DNA from: an uncultured Chroococcidiopsis sp.
Lineage (GTDB): Bacteria; Cyanobacteriota; Cyanobacteriia; Cyanobacteriales; Chroococcidiopsidaceae
Reading direction: 5' to 3'
NCBI GenBank assembly: GCA_964248365.1
Contig: CAXTYC010000003.1
Span: forward strand, 32,001 to 96,000
Length of the DNA: 64,000 nucleotides
Under the pieces are notes generated by a model that was given only the letters and a program-made list of their open reading frames with translations, did not search any database and was not told the DNA's origin. Made by a program: the position numbers and the translations under genes. Of this stretch, positions 14,132 to 21,559 are shown piece by piece. How positions within the stretch are numbered: the stretch's first letter is position 1; every line of letters begins with the position of its first letter.

Positions 14132-15313
14132 ATGTATTTAAAAAGTCTACATCTGAGGCATTTTCGTAACTACCAAGATCAGCAAGTTGATTTTATTGCG
14201 CCAAAAACAATTTTGGTAGGTAATAATGCTCAAGGAAAATCGAATTTGTTGGAAGCGGTGGAATTGCTGGCGACGTTGCGATCGCACCGAATGGCGCGCG
14301 ATCGTGATCTAGTGCGGGAAGGAGAAGCCGCAGGACAAATTACTGCCACTCTAGAGCGTCAAACTGGCATTGTTGACCTCGCTCTTACATTACGCCGTCA
14401 AGGTCGTCGTAGTGTTGCGCTCAATAGCGAGTACTTGCGGCGACATCTGGATTTTTTGGGTGTTTTGAACGCTGTACAGTTTTCCAGCCTAGATTTAGAA
14501 CTGGTGCGAGGGGGACCAGAACAACGCCGCCACTGGATAGATACGCTGTTAATTCAACTTGAACCTGTTTACGCCTATATATTACAGCAATATAACCAGG
14601 TGTTGCGACAGCGAAATGCTTTGCTCAGAAGGAGTCAGGAGTCAGGTAGGGGCGGGTTTAACCAGGATATTAGTGGGACGACAAGCAGGCTAACAAACCC
14701 GCCCATACAGGAAGAGTTGGAGGTGTGGAATGCTCAACTTGCAGCTGTGGGTTCAAGGGTGATTAGAAGGCGATCGCGTGCTATAGAAAGATTAGCTCCA
14801 ATTGCCACTGCTTGGCATACCAGTATTAGTGATAGTACAGAAATATTGCAAGTAAAATACGCGCCGAATGTTCCTTTCACCCAAAATCATCCCGAACAAG
14901 TGCAACAGGCTTTTTTAGAGAAAATTGCCACAAGAGCGATCGCGGAACAGCATCAAGGTACAACTCTGGTAGGTCCCCATCGAGATGAAATTGAGCTAAC
15001 GATCAACCAAACTCCAGCACGTCAATATGGTTCGCAAGGTCAACAGCGTACCTTAGTCTTAGCACTCAAGCTAGCAGAACTCAAACTAATCGAAGAAGTC
15101 ATCGGAGAACCACCGCTTTTACTTCTAGATGACGTACTAGCTGAACTCGACCTTAACCGCCAAAACCAACTTTTAGAAGCAATTCAAGACCGCTTTCAAA
15201 CCCTGATTACCACCACTCATTTAGGTTCATTCGACTCTCAGTGGCTCAAAGCATCGCAAATTCTAACAGTTGAGGCGGGACACCTATCACCTCATTCCAT
15301 GCCCAGATTGTAG
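14132..15313 (+). CDS. recF: DNA replication/repair protein RecF
   Basis: [17 protein letters not shown] (Walker A), [24 protein letters not shown]. Confidence 0.98.
14646..14708. repeat. 63-bp palindromic element inserted in-frame in recF
   Basis: GTAGGGGCGGGTTT ... AAACCCGCCCATAC; encodes [21 protein letters not shown]. Confidence 0.85.
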
Positions 15314-15369
15314 CCACCCATGCCCACCACATAGAACCCACCACATAGAAATAATAAAAAATCATGCGC

Positions 15370-15399
15370 AGAAGAGACGTAATATATTACGTCTCTTCT
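15370..15399. repeat. Perfect 30-bp palindrome, variant of the GTAGAGACG...CGTCTCTAC REP-like repeat; possible terminator
   Basis: agaagagacgtaatatattacgtctcttct. Confidence 0.8.
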
Positions 15400-15611
15400 A
15401 TGTTGGTTGCCCCTTCGTAAATTCCCTAGGACTAGATCGATCAACTCCAGCGGTCACGGCTAGGGTCGCTCATGTACTTCACGGAAGTCCCCCTGAAATA
15501 GCGACCCTAGCCGTAAGACCGCACAGTCAAGATCGGGCTAGTGATTGCATGATCGAGCTAAACGCAAGGACAGCGATCCACCGTCCAAATTGCAAGGCTG
15601 TTTCCCAACAT
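15400..15611 (-). ncRNA. Putative retron msr-msd non-coding RNA (type XIII / Mx162-like)
   Basis: Terminal inverted repeat ATGTTGG (15400-15406) / CCAACAT (15605-15611). On the minus strand, CAGCC follows the 5' arm (candidate branch G at 15598), then short msr-like stems, then a long msd-like hairpin (15431-15542) with a 15-bp perfect core. It lies immediately downstream of a WGR-ARM and SWIM gene pair. Confidence 0.72.
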
Positions 15612-15625
15612 TAGCGCGTGATTCG

Positions 15626-17263
15626 TCAGTATTGACGAGCGTGTTGCATTCGCAACGCGAGAATGTGTTCGCAAGGACCCTTATACAGCTTATTCTGTAT
15701 GTGCCAATTGCAACTACATTCTGCGTTTATTATACGCTCATCTGCATCAACTGTCAAGGCTGGGTTGTAGGTTTTTTCCCGCTCTTTGACACTGCCTTGC
15801 AGGGTAAACGCGCCTGTTGCATCACTGGTTACAGATTTTACCTCTACATTGTTGTAAACCAAGAAACGAGTTGCTTTTTCTTCTCGTTCATTGGCAAAAC
15901 GCAGCCTTTCCATTGGTAAAGGTTTGCGGCTGAGTTCTCGCACTCGATAAACTTGCTTATTCAAGTCATAAATGGCACGTCCGGCTTGGGTATATGCCCC
16001 TAAAGCACCAAGAATTACAACTCGGTTTAAACCTAGCCTTTGTGCCAGACTATCAGGGCTTTCTACCCAATTCTTCTTCAGTTGGTCAAAAATGTGCTGC
16101 TGTGTCCATTTATCTACATCAGCACGAGGAGCCATTAAGTCAAAGTTACCAGATTGTGACCAATCGTTTGCCGTCCAGCCTGATAAACCGAGGGTAAAGG
16201 ACATATCGCCTAAGTCGGCGACATAAAAAGAAGGCATACCCGTACCCAGCAGGTGAACAGTAAACTTTTTGGCGATGGGGATGAGACGTTCTAAAATATT
16301 TATACGACGACGACCCCAAACGCGAATTTCTTGTTCTTGTGTACCAGTGTAAGGCGATCGCGGACACACTACTTCAATTCCCCAAGGATCGAATATCACC
16401 CGCACTGGTTGCCCTGGTGTAAGATGATAGCGCATACTGCGTGGTCCTTTCTTTTCTTTGTGACGACGCAAGACAAAGCAGATATTGTGAATATCCATCG
16501 GATGCAAATCAAACCGCGTCGCTGGTAAAGACATGGCGGAACTAACTTGCAAAAAGCCTCTTACCCAACTATCAGGTAAATCGATTTTGACTTCTTTAAA
16601 ATCCTCTTCATTGGTAGTTTGAACTTCAAAGCCTGATGGATCAATTTCAAATTTGGTAGTCTTATAACTGCGGATTTTTTGAAACTCATCATACAGGGCG
16701 GCTGAGTAGTCGATATTGGTAGTACCGCAGGCAAATTCGTTGATATTTTTAAATACTTCGTAACTAGCACTCAGTCGCCCATAACTTGATTCATCTTGAC
16801 TGAAACATTCAAAAAAGACTTCATCAGGATGAACTGTAATTACTGGATCTAGGACAAACCAAGCATCTCGATCTTTTTGATAAAGATAATCAAAGTAGCG
16901 GCGTTGTGCTTTGTAGAAAGGTTCTCTGCGTTGGTAACTATTTTGATTTAGATGATTGAGTTCTGATTGTAATGATTTGATGCGATCGCTTACTTCTTTG
17001 CGTTGGGCTGCTACTAATTGCCAGTCTATTTCTTGTTGCTTAGCTGCCCATTCTTTGTACGCTGTTTTGTCTTTTGGTTTGAATCGTAAGTCTGAGACTA
17101 CGACGTTATGTAAGGCGCTAATTGCTTCACGAAATGCTACGTTTTGGCGTAATTCTCCGATAAAATATGTTGGTGGGCGCTTGGTGTCTGGGGAGAATGT
17201 CATCTGGGTATTAGCGCCGTCGTTAATTGAGGTATTTCCTTTGTAGGTGTAGTTGAATTCCAT
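15626..17263 (-). CDS. SWIM zinc-finger protein (wH-SWIM type, putative retron type XIII accessory)
   Basis: C-terminal CSC-x12-CEH (AECSCNWHIQNKLYKGPCEHILAL); DPVITVHPD..FFECFS.DESSYG and DLPDSWVRGFLQV motifs. Confidence 0.85.
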   Translation of the reverse strand: MEFNYTYKGNTSINDGANTQMTFSPDTKRPPTYFIGELRQNVAFREAISALHNVVVSDLRFKPKDKTAYKEWAAKQQEIDWQLVAAQRKEVSDRIKSLQSELNHLNQNSYQRREPFYKAQRRYFDYLYQKDRDAWFVLDPVITVHPDEVFFECFSQDESSYGRLSASYEVFKNINEFACGTTNIDYSAALYDEFQKIRSYKTTKFEIDPSGFEVQTTNEEDFKEVKIDLPDSWVRGFLQVSSAMSLPATRFDLHPMDIHNICFVLRRHKEKKGPRSMRYHLTPGQPVRVIFDPWGIEVVCPRSPYTGTQEQEIRVWGRRRINILERLIPIAKKFTVHLLGTGMPSFYVADLGDMSFTLGLSGWTANDWSQSGNFDLMAPRADVDKWTQQHIFDQLKKNWVESPDSLAQRLGLNRVVILGALGAYTQAGRAIYDLNKQVYRVRELSRKPLPMERLRFANEREEKATRFLVYNNVEVKSVTSDATGAFTLQGSVKEREKTYNPALTVDADERIINAECSCNWHIQNKLYKGPCEHILALRMQHARQY

Positions 17264-17363
17264 ATTTTAGATGGGATTGGTTGGGGGGAAAGATTAATTT
17301 TGACGAACCGCAGAGGCACAGAGAACGCAGAGGTAAGAATAGAGAGGAGATAGGAAGTGTATT

Positions 17364-20300
17364 TTAGTTTCTGAGTTGGGCTACTGGTTTTAGGTGGAGG
17401 GGTAGGGATATTTGAGGATAGGTTTTGCGAATTTTTAGCATGATCTGTATGGCTGCTGCTTTGTCTCCAATTGCTATAGTTGCAGATTGTCTGGTGAGAA
17501 TTTCTGCAACGAAGGAGGCGGCTTGCTCGTTTTTTTGGGCTTCGGTTTCCAGAAAGGCAAGAATTCTCTGTTTGGCGACTCTGCCGCGATTGACGCTAGA
17601 CAATACGCTGATGAAATAAGGTGTTAGTTGTTGTAGGCGTTCGGGGTTATCTATGGCGTAGTTTTCTAGATAGTTAGTAGCAAACATCTGCATATCGGCT
17701 GAGGGATGTTCGCTGAATTTGAGTAGGTATTCTTGTCCATAATTTTGTTGAAAGTTGTGAATGACTAAATCGCGCCCAAAAGAGCGGACATCTTCACGTA
17801 TACTGTCACAAATGCTAACTATTACTTCTGGTGTCCAATCTTGGGCTGTGAAGTCGTTACTAAAAATTCTGGTTGCAAATTCGCGGGAGTCATCCCATTT
17901 TGACTCTAGTAATCGCACGGCAGATAACATTTGTTCTGAGTTTGTGCGAATATGATTTAAATTTCGCACAAACATTTGTCGTGCTGCTTCACGTATGGCT
18001 ATAATTTCGTGATTTGCAAGTTTGACTATTTCGCTGATTTGGAATTCGGGTAGGAAGCGCTCGCTATTTTCTTGCAATACTAAACCACCCAATTCTTGGG
18101 CAGAGGAAGATTTAGCATGAAGTAGCAACATGGCTTTGTCTTTACTTATATTAGACATCCAATTCGGTATGTCTTCTCGTAGCAATTGCACTACATATTT
18201 ATGAATGCCTTCGTGTCTTTCTGGTGCGATTAATACATCGATTAAATCAGAGGCGATCGCACTGGCAAAGTCTGTATTATTATTTGCTAAGCGTCGAATA
18301 ACTGGACGAATGGCATGACGAATATCAGTGACGGCGTTAATTGCCATTGCTGTTATTAGTGTGCGATCGTTTAACAATTTCTCATCAGGTAATTGTCCAA
18401 AAATTCTCACACCAATACCACGTACTGATTCATAAGGAGAAGCAAGCAGTGATTCAATTAAATTAGGTGGTAAATCAACTGCCCTCGTTTCGTGGTTAAG
18501 TAAAATACGAGCGCCTAATTCTTGAATTTTTGGCATTGGGTGTCGCAGTAAGTCTAAGATGACACCAAATCCTAAGTTACGCAGTTGGGGTGTAAAGCTA
18601 ATTAGCAAAGTCTCGCCAATTTCTTTCGCCATATAGGTTTGAGTGGGTTCAAGTGCTAATACAGCAGCGATTATGCGTCCAATTAGTACCCTGGCTGTGG
18701 CATCATCTAAAATTGAGGAACTTAACAACCTACGGGCAAAAGCACGAGTATCAGCTTGTTTACTGGTGACTAAGCTGGCGATAAACTCGCTGGATGTAAA
18801 AAAGTATTCGCGTTGCGCTTCAATCCAATGGTAAGCTTGTGTACGAGCGTTTTGTGATATGCAATTGGCAGCAGCTAAAACTAATGTTTGATTAGGTTGG
18901 GCTGGGTTGTAGCGAGTAACTGCCAGCGAAAAGGCAAATTCGACTGTAACTTCGTAGGGTTTATTTAGTAGTAGGATGATGGTGTTGATGTCGAGGCGAT
19001 CGCAAAATTCTGTACTTGTCCGTATCGCTTTAGCGGCAAAATGATGTACAGGGCGACAGTCACTTTCTAATAATAGTTGTAATAGTGCTTCTGGGTGTTG
19101 TTGCCAAAGTTCAGGAAACGCTTCTTCTCTTACATTCGGTTCTGGATATCCTGGTTTGTAAGTTTCTTTGCAACGCCATGCTTTGGGATGGGAAATATAG
19201 CGCGGGCTGTTTTCGTACAGAATATGATTAAATGTTAAGTATGGCGCATAATTATCCCAAGATATGGTAATGCGATCATAGGAACGGCGTTGCTGATTCC
19301 ATCTTGTAAAGCTTGTTTGTCTAACTGGTTGAGCATCCCGATCAGAATACTGAAGCAAAACGCCTACAGCCATTTTTACATATTCAGGATCGCCCTCTTC
19401 GCCCAACTGCTTAAGAGTACGCCACACCCGCCGCCGCAAATATTCACGAGTTTGTTTACTGTAAGCTAGTCTTGCATTAGGGCGCTGCATTTCTGCTTCA
19501 AACTCGCTGATTCCGAGAGTTTCCCATTGGCGTGTTGTAGAGTTGTATCTATTATTTTGTGTTCTTAAGTACTCACCGCCTGGGAGATAGACGTAATACC
19601 CATCACTGTCATAATTTCCCGATTCTTTCTCAAACGTATAAGCAAGAATGCCAAAAATTTCTGCATCGTGGCGATATTCAGCGATTTTGAAAATGTGGCG
19701 AATTTGCTTGAAATAGTTAGGTTTAAGTGGCGCTTCGCATAAAATATCTAGTAGTGCTGGACGTACATATTCGTTATCGATTTGATAGATAGTATCGAGA
19801 ACGGCAAAACGTTTGTAATCACTGCTGTCTAAATAAGTTTTTAGTGCTGCGGCGAATGCGTCTGCTGATCCATTCTGAGCTAATTTTGATAGAGATGAGG
19901 GTAGGCGATTTATGCATTCTGAACGCGCTGCTTTAGCATTTTGATTTGATAATTTTAGTAATGCTTCAAAAGCAATCCGACGAACAAATGCAGGGTGAGA
20001 AGCATTAGACAGGCGTTCGAGGCTAGCGATCGCATATTCATCCCCACACCAACCCAACGCCCAAGCAATACAATAATCTCTCAGGGGTTCGCCAGTGCCA
20101 ATTAGCTCAATTAATAACGGTGTGGCTTCCTTAATTTTCAGTTCTCCAGCCCGCCAAATCACTCGATCTAAAGACCATTTTCTTTCGTCTCGATTCGCAA
20201 GCCGATTTAGAATAGCCTGATGGCGTGGATCACTACTGGTGAGTGTTACATCTGTGCGAGTTGTGACTAGTGCGGGAGTATTACTAATTGGTTGATTGGT

Positions 20301-20537
20301 AGTATCTTGGTAGCCTTTTTTAACTTTTTCTCTAACTAGCTGCTCGAAAACTCGCTCTGCTTCGGCTAGTGGTACAGGCTGGGTTGTCTTCGTTCCTTCT
20401 TTGAGGTTAGTACCGCGTCGTCCATAGCGAAAGTTTACCACATAGCGGTTTTGCCCCGTCTGGCATAAATCAACTTCGTAGACTTTATCTGAACTTCCTT
20501 CTTGATAGCACAGCGTAGTCCGTTTGATTAGTTGCAT
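17364..20537 (-). CDS. WGR-domain plus ARM/HEAT-repeat protein (putative retron type XIII accessory)
   Basis: N-terminal WGR domain (SSDKVYEVDL...VNFRYGRRG...K.KKGY) then helical repeats (YCIAWALGWCG, VRRIAFEAL). Start set at ATG 20537 with GGAG SD; the upstream ORF extension is MITE-derived. Confidence 0.85.
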   Translation of the reverse strand: MQLIKRTTLCYQEGSSDKVYEVDLCQTGQNRYVVNFRYGRRGTNLKEGTKTTQPVPLAEAERVFEQLVREKVKKGYQDTTNQPISNTPALVTTRTDVTLTSSDPRHQAILNRLANRDERKWSLDRVIWRAGELKIKEATPLLIELIGTGEPLRDYCIAWALGWCGDEYAIASLERLSNASHPAFVRRIAFEALLKLSNQNAKAARSECINRLPSSLSKLAQNGSADAFAAALKTYLDSSDYKRFAVLDTIYQIDNEYVRPALLDILCEAPLKPNYFKQIRHIFKIAEYRHDAEIFGILAYTFEKESGNYDSDGYYVYLPGGEYLRTQNNRYNSTTRQWETLGISEFEAEMQRPNARLAYSKQTREYLRRRVWRTLKQLGEEGDPEYVKMAVGVLLQYSDRDAQPVRQTSFTRWNQQRRSYDRITISWDNYAPYLTFNHILYENSPRYISHPKAWRCKETYKPGYPEPNVREEAFPELWQQHPEALLQLLLESDCRPVHHFAAKAIRTSTEFCDRLDINTIILLLNKPYEVTVEFAFSLAVTRYNPAQPNQTLVLAAANCISQNARTQAYHWIEAQREYFFTSSEFIASLVTSKQADTRAFARRLLSSSILDDATARVLIGRIIAAVLALEPTQTYMAKEIGETLLISFTPQLRNLGFGVILDLLRHPMPKIQELGARILLNHETRAVDLPPNLIESLLASPYESVRGIGVRIFGQLPDEKLLNDRTLITAMAINAVTDIRHAIRPVIRRLANNNTDFASAIASDLIDVLIAPERHEGIHKYVVQLLREDIPNWMSNISKDKAMLLLHAKSSSAQELGGLVLQENSERFLPEFQISEIVKLANHEIIAIREAARQMFVRNLNHIRTNSEQMLSAVRLLESKWDDSREFATRIFSNDFTAQDWTPEVIVSICDSIREDVRSFGRDLVIHNFQQNYGQEYLLKFSEHPSADMQMFATNYLENYAIDNPERLQQLTPYFISVLSSVNRGRVAKQRILAFLETEAQKNEQAASFVAEILTRQSATIAIGDKAAAIQIMLKIRKTYPQISLPLHLKPVAQLRN

Positions 20538-20607
20538 CCGGTTGTCTCCACTATTGGTATTTAATAGTATATGTGTACTAATGTGCAAAGGGTAGGGGTG
20601 GGTATAA

Positions 20608-20776
20608 CTTAGATCTTGCATCTTTCCCATAGTCCGCCTGCTAATTAATTAGCAGGCTCACAGCCAAAGTCTTCTTAAGAAGACTACATTGGGTTGCAGT
20701 CCATTGAAATGGACTTGAGCTATTAGCCCAAAAAAGAAGTAAGGGGCGGTGATTGAAACTGGCGCAATATGTAAAT
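20608..20776. mobile_element. MITE-like element with internal palindromes (copy 1)
   Basis: Near-identical to 53551-53820; internal palindromes gcctgctaattaattagcaggc, agtcttcttaagaagact, agtccattgaaatggact; imperfect TIR cttagatcttgca / ggcgcaatatgtaa. Confidence 0.75.
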
Positions 20777-20902: not shown

Positions 20903-21559
20903 CTAAGGATTGATTTGACTCAAAATCACTTTCAAGCGATCGTAATCGTCTTTAAGTAGTACGCTCAGAGTACGTCCTGCTTTAACTAACCACTCTCTTT
21001 CTGCTTTGCGTAGCTGATAGACTTGTCGAATTGCAGCTGCTATTAAGGCTTCTATGGGCGCACCTTTCACTTCTAACAAAGTTCTTAAAAAATCTAGCTG
21101 TTCGCTGAAGAAAATAATATCTTCTGGTTGGCAACGGTAAACAGCCTGATGAATTTGAGGCGGACGAGGTGGAAGATATTGATAAATCTGGCGCCCCGCG
21201 CGTTTTGAAGCTTTTTCCGGCTCAAATCCGACAATAGCAGCTCGAAACTCGGTTTTGAGCATAGCGAAGATCTGGGGTTGTTGCTCTCGCAAGTCTTGTA
21301 AAGACAACCCTAAAGCCCTGGCTCGATGAATTGAGTCGATGGGCATGGTGGTAGCATAGTATACTACGGCGTATATTTGATTACCTGACTCTTCATCCCT
21401 GGACTTTACCCAGCTACCAAATGGGGGCATAACTGGGAAACTCAATTCATCTGGTTCTAAGCATTGAGCTAAAAATTCAGTCGTGGCGGTTTCGATCACC
21501 TCAGCTAGGTAGTCTGGGTGGCGATCGCCTGTGGCAAATTGGGGTAGGGGAAGGCGCAT
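20903..21559 (-). CDS. HAS-barrel domain protein (conserved cyanobacterial)
   Basis: AEVIET.TTEFLAQC, PPFGSWVK, P.DS.HRARALG, PP.PPQIHQAVY. Confidence 0.8.
   Translation of the reverse strand: MRLPLPQFATGDRHPDYLAEVIETATTEFLAQCLEPDELSFPVMPPFGSWVKSRDEESGNQIYAVVYYATTMPIDSIHRARALGLSLQDLREQQPQIFAMLKTEFRAAIVGFEPEKASKRAGRQIYQYLPPRPPQIHQAVYRCQPEDIIFFSEQLDFLRTLLEVKGAPIEALIAAAIRQVYQLRKAEREWLVKAGRTLSVLLKDDYDRLKVILSQINP

What the first reader, a model, noticed from the sequence alone, without database searches (positions are those of the whole stretch)
15400..20537. Type XIII-like retron module: WGR-ARM protein + SWIM protein + unannotated msr-msd ncRNA
Seen: two large co-oriented minus-strand genes (WGR+ARM/HEAT, ~1057 aa; SWIM Zn-finger, 545 aa), followed 14 nt after the stop by a ~210-nt highly structured non-coding block. 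The block has outer inverted repeats ATGTTGG/CCAACAT (15400-15406, 15605-15611). On the minus strand CAGCC follows the 5' arm (G at 15598). Next come msr-like stems TTGCA...TGCAA and GGACGGUG/CGCUGUCC, whose G-U pairs work only on the minus strand. Then a long hairpin: ACGGCTAGGGTCGCT (15456-15470) pairs perfectly with 15500-15514, extended by GCGGTC/GACCGC, CGATC/GATCG and ACTAG/CTAGT. Established: retrons have a1/a2 arms, a branch G, msr stems and a long msd hairpin, and type XIII retrons (the clade including myxobacterial Mx162) pair with ARM and wH-SWIM proteins. From memory, and unverified, the ACGGC..GGGT/ACCC..GCCGT stem and CAGCC also resemble Mx162 msd/msr. Inference: a cyanobacterial retron anti-phage or DNA-sensing module inserted downstream of recF.
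Basis: partly seen in the sequence, partly recalled or inferred. Interest (0 to 1): 0.9.

Follow-up and report, generated by a model that had tools for sequence, protein, structure and literature searches.

The report
Split type XIII retron, enzyme elsewhere
This is the partner-gene and template-RNA half of a known bacterial retron (type XIII), but its reverse transcriptase gene sits at an unlinked place in the genome, an arrangement that standard retron definitions and detection tools do not expect.

Summary
The two minus-strand genes match PADLOC's type XIII retron partner models over their full length: WGR_XIII 1301 bits, SWIM_XIII 821 bits.

The block after the SWIM stop is a real type XIII msr-msd RNA gene:
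- It is single-copy in this genome.
- It folds far better than shuffles, z = -10 with full flanks.
- It has homologues across phyla. In 40 of 42 non-cyanobacterial RT loci one lies directly upstream of the retron RT.
- Its structure covaries: 62 pairs, 88.7% paired against 33-45% in slid controls.

It exists, intact (NAxxH, VTG, YADD; RT_XIII 668 bits), on another contig at least 89 kb away, with no template RNA beside it.

The same split recurs in filamentous cyanobacteria, including complete genomes with 0.5-3.4 Mb between the loci. RT and SWIM co-occur almost perfectly, and both are under equal purifying selection.

Verdict: a known retron type in a new two-locus architecture. msDNA production and the defence role are untested.

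Earlier scan notes on other genomes describe complete type XIII loci. Two word look-ups and one sequence look-up in those notes returned no note of a split one.

The parts
17364..20630 (-). WGR + HEAT/ARM-repeat protein (type XIII retron accessory protein, Mestre cluster 216_1 type). The likely true start is near 20537.
   Evidence: Pfam WGR 8.6e-09 and HEAT_2 2.2e-13. PADLOC WGR_XIII 1300.9 bits over residues 32-1084, profile positions 1-971 of 973.
15626..17263 (-). SWIM_XIII protein: N-terminal helices, a central PCNA-like double domain that carries the 'DEDE' residues, a winged-helix region and a C-terminal SWIM zinc finger CxCx12CxH.
   Evidence: PADLOC SWIM_XIII 821.3 bits, residues 1-542 on profile 1-504 of 509. 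CSCx12CEH at residues 516-533 and the D139...E motif spacing. AF2 model pLDDT 77.4; Foldseek top hits are PCNA clamps, E 4e-10, TMt 0.69.
15729..15757 (-). Candidate internal promoter for the ncRNA (TTGACA-17-TATAAT) inside the 3' end of the SWIM ORF. This is an inference.
   Evidence: 12 of 12 consensus match. The motif is kept as TTGAC[AG]-17-TAT[AGC][AC]T in 10 of 10 order-level orthologues and is absent in the 3 more distant ones, L033, L034 and L041. It overlaps conserved codons, so conservation alone proves nothing.
15351..15624 (-). Whole msr-msd ncRNA gene with bipartite a1/a2 stem and terminal U-run.
   Evidence: Fold -124.1 kcal/mol, z -10.06. Single copy. Homologous to RNAs directly upstream of RT_XIII homologues.
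15605..15624 (-). a1: distal GAATCACGCGC (15624-15614) and proximal ATGTTGG (15611-15605).
   Evidence: Pairs with a2 in the MFE and centroid folds. Flanking inverted repeats are found in the family: 62 of 72 homologues have duplex z < -2.
15598..15598 (-). Candidate priming (branching) guanosine in CAGCC, between a1 and helix P1.
   Evidence: Sequence. A G two bases before the CC of P1 occurs in 9 of 13 cyanobacterial homologues in A1. CAGC context is reported for Mx162 and Sa163 (PMC6868368). Not tested experimentally.
15568..15586 (-). msr stem-loop GGACGGTG-GAT-CGCTGTCC.
   Evidence: Helix 2 of the consensus: 8 pairs, 99.1% of cells paired, 5 pairs with changes on both sides.
15431..15542 (-). 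msd domain: a stacked long hairpin (ACTAG/CTAGT, CGATC/GATCG, GACT/AGTT, GCGGTC/GACCGC) topped by the hypervariable 15-bp stem 15514-15500 / 15470-15456 and an apical GACTTC...GAAGT hairpin.
   Evidence: Helices 4-7. All 19 pairs of helix 6 and all 5 pairs of helix 7 show changes on both sides. Tandem copies in other loci differ mainly here.
15360..15406 (-). a2: proximal CCAACAT (15406-15400), an inserted 30-nt hairpin (15399-15370) and distal GCGCATGATT (15369-15360). T-run at 15361-15356.
   Evidence: The hairpin is also scored as a + strand terminator-like site behind recF.

Best explanation
Window 15351-20630 (minus strand) is the effector-plus-template half of a type XIII retron of the Ne144/Mx162 clade. 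It holds the WGR-HEAT/ARM gene, the SWIM gene and, directly after it, the msr-msd RNA gene. The matching reverse transcriptase is encoded in trans on another contig (G000:C24:41805-43205).

Proposed working (inferred):
1. The RNA is made as the 3' end of the WGR-SWIM transcript or from an internal promoter at 15757-15729, and ends at the U-run after a2.
2. The a1/a2 stem brings the priming G (candidate G15598) next to the start of the template, within GGGGCAA at 15413-15407.
3. The trans-encoded RT binds the conserved msr stem-loops and copies the msd hairpin domain into a branched msDNA of roughly 135-150 nt.
4. The msDNA-RNA hybrid is then held by the two partner proteins. The PCNA-like domain, the winged helix and the SWIM finger of one, and the WGR domain and HEAT/ARM scaffold of the other, are nucleic-acid-binding or scaffold folds and not evident enzymes.
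5. By analogy with other retrons, the complex would guard against phage.

Shown here: the identity of all three parts, their homology, the RNA structure, the unlinked position of the RT, the co-occurrence of the genes and purifying selection on them. Inferred: transcription, reverse transcription in trans, binding, and the defence role.
For: Proteins and RT:
- The two proteins match WGR_XIII (1301 bits) and SWIM_XIII (821 bits) over their full length.
- The genome has exactly one retron-type RT among 14 RVT_1 matches. It scores RT_XIII 667.8 bits (the next model scores 333) and carries NAQPH, VTG and YADD plus the N-terminal extension typical of this clade. The other RTs scanned are group II intron type.

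The RNA:
- One copy in the genome, beside SWIM and none near the RT. The region upstream of the RT is AT-rich, weakly structured (z -2.2) and not conserved among 17 detached or separated RTs.
- The same RNA family sits between SWIM and RT, or directly upstream of RT, in 40 of 42 non-cyanobacterial RT loci. These include Nannocystis, Archangium, Hyalangium, Acidobacteriota, Bradyrhizobium and Vibrio. It also does so in cyanobacteria G102, G078, G093, G066, G057, G060 and G123.
- Structure on 72 distinct homologues: 62 pairs, 88.7% of cells paired against 33-45% when slid, 48 pairs with changes on both sides, and 0 of 500 shuffles as high on four of five measures.
- a1/a2 duplexes: median -29.9 kcal/mol, and 62 of 72 have z < -2.

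The split arrangement:
- RT and SWIM lie 0.56-3.4 Mb apart on one contig in G002, G055, G300 and G042, and on other contigs in G238, G292, G006 and G369. The RNA has a single BLAST hit beside SWIM in G002, G238 and G055, and one copy 2.3 kb from SWIM in G300. BLAST missed G042, whose copy beside SWIM was found by nhmmer.
- 6 of 19 cyanobacterial RT loci with at least 6 kb of upstream flank have no SWIM, WGR or RNA within 7 kb.
- Co-occurrence in a 401-genome phylum sample: all 18 genomes with a full-length RT orthologue hold the SWIM orthologue, and 18 of 19 SWIM holders have the RT.
- Purifying selection on detached genes (G002 against G006): RT omega 0.128, SWIM 0.120. That equals the same-contig pair G082/G335 (RT about 2.3-2.7 kb downstream of SWIM), 0.114 and 0.108. 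RT and SWIM pairwise identities correlate at r = 0.976 over 120 pairs from 16 genomes, which are not independent.
Against: - No experiment or read data show that the RNA is transcribed, that msDNA is made, or that the RT acts on this RNA. The public runs laid were contigs of 90-95% alike relatives and gave no verdict.
- The defining textbook feature, an ncRNA contiguous with its RT, is not met in this genome.
- The a2 arm carries a 30-nt hairpin insertion not seen in the other 12 cyanobacterial homologues. This could impair priming.
- The exact priming G is not conserved in position across the family: 4 of 13 cyanobacterial homologues lack a G at that spot.
- Co-occurrence counts come from related genomes and overstate independence.
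- One SWIM-holding genome (G039, 93% complete) showed no RT.
- No defence function is known for any type XIII retron in the papers I could search.
Confidence: 0.78

Rival explanations
1. Decaying remnant. After a rearrangement tore the RT away, the WGR-SWIM-ncRNA locus and the RT no longer work together. The RNA is a fossil and the RT is idle or serves another role.
For: - Contiguity of ncRNA and RT, the norm for retrons, is lost.
- The a2 arm has a 30-nt insertion unique to this genome.
- In G341 the RT about 2 kb downstream of SWIM on the same contig carries an in-frame TAA, so decay does occur in the clade.
Against: - All three parts are intact here.
- Detached RT and SWIM are under equal strong purifying selection, omega about 0.12 at dS 0.4-0.5.
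- The RNA keeps its covarying structure in every split genome examined.
- RT and SWIM co-occur in 18 of 18 and 18 of 19 holders among 401 genomes.
- The split is found in at least four families.
Confidence: 0.1
2. RT-independent module. WGR-ARM, SWIM and the structured RNA work as an RNA-protein system without reverse transcription, and the RT elsewhere serves another template.
For: - The RNA travels with the partner genes, not with the RT, whenever the parts separate.
- Both partner proteins look like nucleic-acid binders or scaffolds.
- In print, WGR/SWIM pairs without an RT are known from E. coli (molR/yehQ-type). This is recalled and comes from no call.
Against: - No SWIM_XIII orthologue-holding genome that is at least 94% complete lacks the RT.
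- No conserved alternative template is seen upstream of 17 detached or separated RTs.
- RT and SWIM divergence are tightly correlated.
- The RNA retains the a1/a2 stem and the G context, which have a role only in priming.
Confidence: 0.08
3. Ordinary 3' structure: a terminator, a 3' UTR element or a miniature transposon, unrelated to retrons.
For: - Its position between two convergent genes.
- A T-run after the outer stem.
- The embedded hairpin 15370-15399 scores as a terminator-like site.
- No Rfam family matches.
Against: - Single copy.
- About 200 nt of conserved sequence across phyla, always beside RT_XIII and SWIM_XIII genes.
- A multi-helix covarying structure far larger than a terminator.
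Confidence: 0.02

Closest known systems
Type XIII retrons (RT clade 10) of Mestre et al. 2020, PMC7736814: Retron-Nex2 (Ne144), Retron-Mxa1 (Mx162), Retron-Mxa2 (Mx65), Retron-Sau1 (Sa163). PADLOC models RT_XIII, SWIM_XIII, WGR_XIII.
   Same: - The same three protein families at full-length, high scores.
- SWIM CxCx12CxH and the DEDE spacing as described in the paper.
- RT with an N-terminal extension, NAxxH, VTG and YADD.
- The RNA is homologous to the RNAs directly upstream of RT in Nannocystis, Archangium, Hyalangium and Polyangia loci.
- CAGC context of the candidate priming G, as printed for Mx162 and Sa163.
   Different: - The RT is not in the locus. It lies on another contig at least 89 kb away.
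- The RNA follows the SWIM gene and ends in its own U-run, and is not followed by an RT gene.
- The a2 arm is interrupted by a hairpin.
- I did not compare the block with the published Mx162 or Ne144 sequences or with Mestre's covariance models, which are not in Rfam.
'Orphan' retrons discussed by Mestre et al. 2020 (Discussion passage): RT plus ncRNA without a neighbouring effector gene.
   Same: The RT on C24 stands alone among housekeeping genes (znuABC, usp) with no partner gene nearby.
   Different: The paper says most hosts of orphan retrons lack homologues of the associated proteins. It leaves open whether unknown effectors act in trans. Here the known partners are present elsewhere in the genome, and the ncRNA sits with them, not with the RT.
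Engineered retron systems that express the RT and the msr-msd from separate constructs (for example CRISPEY, described in PMC6868368, passage).
   Same: The RT acts in trans on a separately transcribed msr-msd. This shows the chemistry does not need co-transcription.
   Different: Those are artificial constructs of other retron types. This would be a natural, evolutionarily maintained two-locus arrangement.
PCNA / sliding-clamp fold (for example yeast PCNA 7ti8_G, human PCNA 6hvo_B).
   Same: The central roughly 245 residues of the SWIM protein superpose on a PCNA monomer: Foldseek E 4e-10, probability 1.00, TM 0.69 on the target, rmsd 3.5 A.
   Different: - Only 9-14% identity.
- The domain is embedded in a larger protein with a winged helix and a SWIM finger.
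- Ring formation is not tested.
- The published description calls this region a DEDE, transposase-like motif.

Membership tests
Retron (general definition) | Retron-clade RT with NAxxH, VTG and YADD motifs | tested here: met
   NAQPH, VTG and YADD are present in the 467-aa ORF on G000:C24. Best PADLOC models are retron RTs. Best solved relative is the Ec86 RT, 2.6e-46. The gene lies outside the window.
Retron (general definition) | msr-msd ncRNA gene contiguous with (immediately upstream of) the RT gene | tested here: not met
   The only copy of the RNA is at window 15351-15624. None lies near the RT on C24. The feature is met in homologous loci of other genomes.
Retron (general definition) | Flanking inverted repeats a1/a2 that close the ncRNA | tested here: met
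   A bipartite stem of about 17 bp appears in the MFE and centroid folds. The family-wide duplex test gives 62 of 72 with z < -2.
Retron (general definition) | Conserved priming guanosine at the inner end of a1 | tested here: inconclusive
   G15598 lies in CAGCC. A G at this spot occurs in 9 of 13 cyanobacterial homologues. The position shifts in other phyla. The CAGC context matches that printed for Mx162 and Sa163.
Retron (general definition) | Production of branched multicopy single-stranded DNA | not testable with these tools
   Needs nucleic-acid extraction. The read data available were contigs of relatives only.
Type XIII retron (Mestre 2020; PADLOC retron XIII) | RT of clade 10 (RT_XIII) | tested here: met
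   RT_XIII 667.8 bits, residues 16-482 on profile 5-427 of 469. The next model, RT_other, scores 332.9.
Type XIII retron (Mestre 2020; PADLOC retron XIII) | Cluster 114_1 protein: DEDE motif, winged helix, C-terminal SWIM CxCx12CxH | tested here: met
   SWIM_XIII 821 bits. Motif spacing and the zinc finger were found. The winged helix was not tested separately. The central fold reads as PCNA-like.
Type XIII retron (Mestre 2020; PADLOC retron XIII) | Cluster 216_1 protein: WGR-like domain plus HEAT/ARM repeats | tested here: met
   Pfam WGR and HEAT_2. WGR_XIII 1301 bits, plus three HEAT-ARM_XIII models.
Type XIII retron (Mestre 2020; PADLOC retron XIII) | Type XIII-specific ncRNA structure | tested here: met
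   Homology (nhmmer E 1e-13 to 1e-59) to RNAs directly upstream of RT_XIII homologues in many phyla, with a shared covarying structure. Not scored against the published covariance models, which were not available (one search shows no Rfam family).
Type XIII retron (Mestre 2020; PADLOC retron XIII) | Co-location of the RT with the partner genes in one locus | tested here: not met
   SWIM and WGR lie on contig C3, at least 47 kb from its end. The RT lies on contig C24, at least 36 kb from either end.

The most novel reading that the evidence does not exclude
In filamentous cyanobacteria the type XIII retron has become a natural two-locus system. The RT is a stand-alone, separately expressed enzyme acting in trans. 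The template RNA has been handed over to the effector operon, with its own promoter and terminator.

The unit that evolves and moves would then be 'effectors plus template'. Its hypervariable, always perfectly paired msd hairpin differs even between tandem copies in one locus. That hairpin would be a specificity element held by the PCNA-like domain of the SWIM protein.

If so, retron RTs need not be read as markers of where a retron is, and lone retron RTs in genomes may have hidden partners elsewhere.
Probability: 0.4. Interest if true: 0.8.

Novelty: new variant of a known kind. Interest (0 to 1): 0.62.

Why it matters
- **Definition and detection.** Retrons are defined, searched for and classified by an RT with a contiguous ncRNA and neighbouring effector genes (PMC7736814 abstract; PADLOC-type rules, recalled). 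This genome and at least eight other cyanobacterial genomes keep all parts but in two places. Neighbourhood-based tools would report either a lone RT or nothing.
- **A natural test case.** It allows a test of whether a retron RT can serve a template in trans. It also shows which parts co-evolve, since the RNA stays with the effectors.
- **Lone RTs.** It could bear on lone retron RTs that Mestre et al. left open.
- **Mechanism.** The PCNA-like fold of the SWIM protein gives a concrete, testable idea for a retron type with no known mechanism.
- **Limits.** It stays a variant of a catalogued system, and nothing here has been shown at the bench.

Tried and rejected
- **Rfam** (8 kb, E up to 10): only three chance-level miRNA/snoRNA matches. 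No retron family matched.
- **NCBIfam**: no family for the three proteins.
- **MITE or multicopy repeat:** rejected, one copy.
- **Template RNA next to the RT on C24:** not found by BLAST or nhmmer, by folding (z -2.2), or by comparing 17 RT-upstream regions. Those regions share only short tandem repeats or a neighbouring gene's 3' end.
- **HAS-barrel ORF 20903-21559 as a fourth component:** rejected. No homologue appears in any related locus.
- **recF linkage:** recF is next to the module only in this genome among the stored loci.
- **Expression:** one run search and one read-laying. All four runs are kept as contigs of 90-95% alike relatives. One run's contig spans recF, the RNA, SWIM and WGR. 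An RNA-library run has contigs on the SWIM ORF and none on 15403-15603. Contigs cannot show absence, starts or ends, so there is no verdict.
- **Variable stem against phage collections:** not searched. The variable part is only about 15 nt, too short to beat chance.
- **Literature on a split retron:** searches 'retron / type XIII / SWIM' (3 papers), 'retron / cyanobacteria / msDNA / reverse transcriptase' (11), 'retron / Mx162' from 2021 (2), 'retron / unlinked / reverse transcriptase / ncRNA' (1, irrelevant) and 'retron / orphan / msd / effector' (8) gave no description of an RT unlinked from its ncRNA and partners. Supplements of PMC7736814 were not opened and may list cyanobacterial clade-10 RTs without partners.

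Full report
**1. The observation**

The region holds two co-oriented minus-strand ORFs, 17364-20630 and 15626-17263. A non-coding block lies between the SWIM stop and the convergent recF gene (14132-15313, + strand).

The reverse complement of 15395-15625 folds at -95.8 kcal/mol. Shuffles average -70.6, giving z -5.15, and 0 of 200 fold as well. The plus strand folds less well, -80.7 and z -4.43.

Extending the flanks shows the outer stem is bipartite. GAATCACGCGC and ATGTTGG pair with CCAACAT and GCGCATGATT. A 30-nt hairpin (15399-15370) is inserted in the 3' arm, and a U-run follows. The whole element, 15350-15625, folds at -124.1 kcal/mol with z -10.06.

It is not a dispersed repeat. BLAST of the block and an nhmmer profile of the family each find one copy in the 5.58-Mb, 102-contig assembly. 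No Rfam family matches.

**2. The proteins**

Pfam sees only WGR plus HEAT_2 in the large protein and a sub-threshold SWIM finger in the other. PADLOC's retron models match both end to end: WGR_XIII 1300.9 bits and SWIM_XIII 821.3 bits.

The SWIM protein has the CxCx12CxH finger at residues 516-533. It also has the D-x7-D-x4-E...D...E spacing that Mestre et al. describe for cluster 114_1.

It is very conserved across phyla, 49-84% identity over 44 sequences. No solved structure matches it by sequence.

An AlphaFold2 model from that alignment has pLDDT 77.4 and pTM 0.71. Its central roughly 245 residues superpose on PCNA sliding clamps, with Foldseek E 4e-10, probability 1.00 and TM 0.69 on the target. 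So the 'DEDE' region reads as a clamp-like DNA-binding fold and not as an evident nuclease. An earlier scan note on another genome said the same, and I tested it here.

**3. Where is the RT?**

There is none in the window next to the block. Searching the whole genome for RVT_1 gave 14 matches. Those scanned are group II intron maturases or fragments of them, apart from one.

That one is a 467-aa ORF at G000:C24:41805-43205. It scores 667.8 bits on RT_XIII, while the next model scores 333. It carries NAQPH, VTG and YADD and a roughly 150-residue N-terminal extension. Simon et al. describe that extension for the Mx162, Mx65, Sa163 and Ne144 RTs, which group with cyanobacterial RTs (PMC6868368, passages).

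The RT sits between znuABC and a usp gene, with no partner genes nearby. Both loci are far from contig ends: C3 position about 47.6 kb of 274 kb, and C24 position about 42 kb of 79.9 kb. The genes are therefore at least about 89 kb apart.

The 300 nt upstream of the RT are AT-rich, hold a short tandem repeat, fold weakly (z -2.2) and do not match the RNA profile.

**4. Is the block a retron template RNA?**

SWIM orthologues are patchy. They occur in 3 of 28 genomes of the family, in 0 of 6 other genomes of the genus, and in 25 of 401 sampled genomes of the phylum at E <= 1e-20, of which 19 are orthologues.

Downstream of 13 of the 21 orthologues examined, the same block is present directly after the stop codon. 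It has a near-constant frame and a central stem whose two arms change together.

A profile of these 13 sequences then found more copies:
- about 900 nt downstream of SWIM in G292;
- directly upstream of the RT in G123, G060, G093, G057 and G066;
- as a second copy upstream of the RT in G310.

In G102 and G078 the order is SWIM, RNA, RT, with the RT start about 60-70 nt after the RNA.

An RT-centred collection of 80 named loci shows the canonical order WGR, SWIM, RNA, RT across many groups. These include Acidobacteriota, Myxococcota (Nannocystis, Archangium, Hyalangium, Polyangia), Bradyrhizobium, Undibacterium, Vibrio penaeicida, Variovorax, Bacteroidota and Planctomycetota. In 40 of 42 loci whose titles are not cyanobacterial, the profile hits directly upstream of the RT. 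The two exceptions are L155, with only 112 nt of flank, and L124, with 1,457 nt of flank and no hit.

On 72 distinct homologues the RNAalifold structure has 62 pairs in 7 helices:
- 88.7% of cells form standard pairs, against 33-45% when the 3' partners are slid by 1-3 columns.
- 48 pairs show changes on both sides, in 839 cells.
- No shuffle of 500 reaches the observed value on four of five measures.

The flanking a1/a2 complementarity is a family property, with median duplex -29.9 kcal/mol and 62 of 72 below z -2.

The candidate priming G (15598) lies in CAGC, the context printed for Mx162 and Sa163. The position is not invariant, however: 9 of 13 cyanobacterial copies have a G there.

I conclude that the block is a type XIII msr-msd gene.

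**5. The split arrangement is recurrent and maintained**

All 22 genomes checked hold a SWIM homologue: the 20 orthologue-holding genomes other than this one, plus the distant pair G212/G288. 21 of them have the RT; G039 (93% complete) does not. Including this genome, the arrangements are as follows:

| Arrangement | Genomes |
|---|---|
| SWIM-RNA-RT contiguous | G102, G078 |
| SWIM-RNA, then 1.8-2.7 kb, then RT on the same strand | G082, G335, G341, G310 |
| RNA-RT-WGR-SWIM | G093, G066, G057 (G060 and G123 likely, on split contigs) |
| SWIM then RT with a 44-65 nt gap (distant relatives; RNA not examined) | G212, G288 |
| RT elsewhere, with the only detected RNA copy within 2.3 kb of SWIM | G000, G002 (640 kb apart), G055 (3.4 Mb), G300 (670 kb), G042 (557 kb), G238, G292, and less surely G006 and G369 (other contigs) |

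In the named set, 19 cyanobacterial loci have a full-length RT and at least 6 kb of upstream flank:
- 5 have the RNA within 400 nt of the RT.
- 7 have SWIM and the RNA 1-2.4 kb upstream.
- 1 has the RNA 5 kb upstream.
- 6 have none of the partners within 7 kb.

In the 401-genome sample, all 18 genomes with a full-length RT orthologue hold the SWIM orthologue, and 18 of 19 SWIM holders have the RT. These genomes are kin and not independent.

For the two detached genomes G002 and G006, dS is unsaturated (0.49 and 0.37). There RT omega is 0.128 and SWIM omega is 0.120. The pair G082/G335, where the RT follows SWIM on the same contig, gives 0.114 and 0.108. RT and SWIM pairwise identities correlate at r = 0.976. 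These results argue that the two loci still work together.

**6. Transcription (inferred)**

A perfect TTGACA-17-TATAAT lies on the minus strand at 15757-15729, inside the end of the SWIM ORF. The motif is kept in 10 of 10 order-level orthologues and absent in the 3 more distant ones (L033, L034, L041). It overlaps conserved codons, so conservation alone does not prove a promoter.

The outer stem is followed by a T-run here and in most order-level relatives. The RNA can therefore end without an RT gene behind it.

Public reads gave no verdict.

**7. Comparison and novelty**

The parts are a textbook type XIII retron (PMC7736814, passages). The RNA family and its subtypes are already modelled by others: 'TypeXIIIA_firmi / B_Ne144 / C_Mx162/Mx65' appears in PMC13712802 (table passage).

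What I did not find in print, by five searches, is a retron whose RT is unlinked from its ncRNA and partners. Mestre et al. discuss 'orphan' retrons. They state that most hosts lack homologues of the partners, and they leave effectors in trans as an open question.

The split state fails two membership features, ncRNA-RT contiguity and co-location. I therefore file it as a new variant of a known kind and not as a plain member.

Earlier notes of this scan describe complete type XIII loci, tandem template genes and a clamp-fold partner on other genomes. The look-ups returned no note of a split one.

Noticed in passing
L135:2249-3071; also L116, L105, L152, L141, L153, L109, L085 (= G310): Two or three tandem copies of the type XIII template RNA lie in one locus. 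They have near-identical frames but quite different, always perfectly paired central msd stems. This suggests one RT makes several msDNAs that differ only in the hairpin. An earlier scan note, e1-7329155, reported a tandem pair in another cyanobacterium.
   Followed up: partly
L053:3001-3774 (G082), L055:750-1463 (G335), and upstream of the RT in L063 (G055): A full RNase III gene (Ribonuclease_3 plus dsrm) sits directly upstream of the RT. In two genomes it lies between the template RNA and the RT. In a third it lies next to an RT that is 3.4 Mb from SWIM. It could be chance synteny, or a processing enzyme for the long a1/a2 duplex.
   Followed up: partly
G349, G091, G046, G133, G397; L125, L128, L142, L145, L148: A paralogous RT class matches only residues ~126-465 of this RT (61-64% identity) inside open frames of 584-618 aa, apart from 373 aa in G397. 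Its N-terminal part is therefore different. Of these genomes, the five searched for SWIM (G349, G091, G046, G133, G397) showed no SWIM orthologue. In L125 and L142 a fragment matching only the first ~45 positions of the RNA profile lies ~400-480 nt downstream of the RT.
   Followed up: no
Upstream of detached RT genes: L009:800-850, L054, L061, L079, L081, L103, L119: Short tandem repeats of 5-8 nt units (for example CCAGTTA/CCAACTA here, and CTTCC- and CATTCCC-type units elsewhere) lie just upstream of many detached RT genes. There is no shared sequence otherwise. In the own family (G000, G002, G006) about 100 nt before the start codon are conserved, with a CTGACA...TAAGGTAT motif and a small palindrome.
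   Followed up: no
window 20903-21559 (-): A 218-aa ORF with a HAS-barrel domain (PF09378, 5.4e-07) lies just upstream of the WGR gene. No homologue was found in any related retron locus, so it is probably not part of the system.
   Followed up: yes
window 15323-15350: A 14-nt unit (TTCTATGTGGTGGG on the minus strand) is repeated twice in tandem between the recF stop and the T-run that ends the RNA.
   Followed up: no
G102:C45:1224-4047; G114:C25:60628-63070: A second, divergent SWIM-like (34-37% identity) plus RT-like (42-43%) gene pair lies side by side, in G102 alongside the main type XIII locus. This suggests a sister subfamily in the same phylum.
   Followed up: no
L030 (G292), between SWIM and the RNA: About 900 nt are inserted between the SWIM stop and the template RNA. 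They hold a small ORF whose product, by eye and recalled only, looks like a Phd/YefM-type antitoxin. In G300 about 2.3 kb separate SWIM and the RNA.
   Followed up: no
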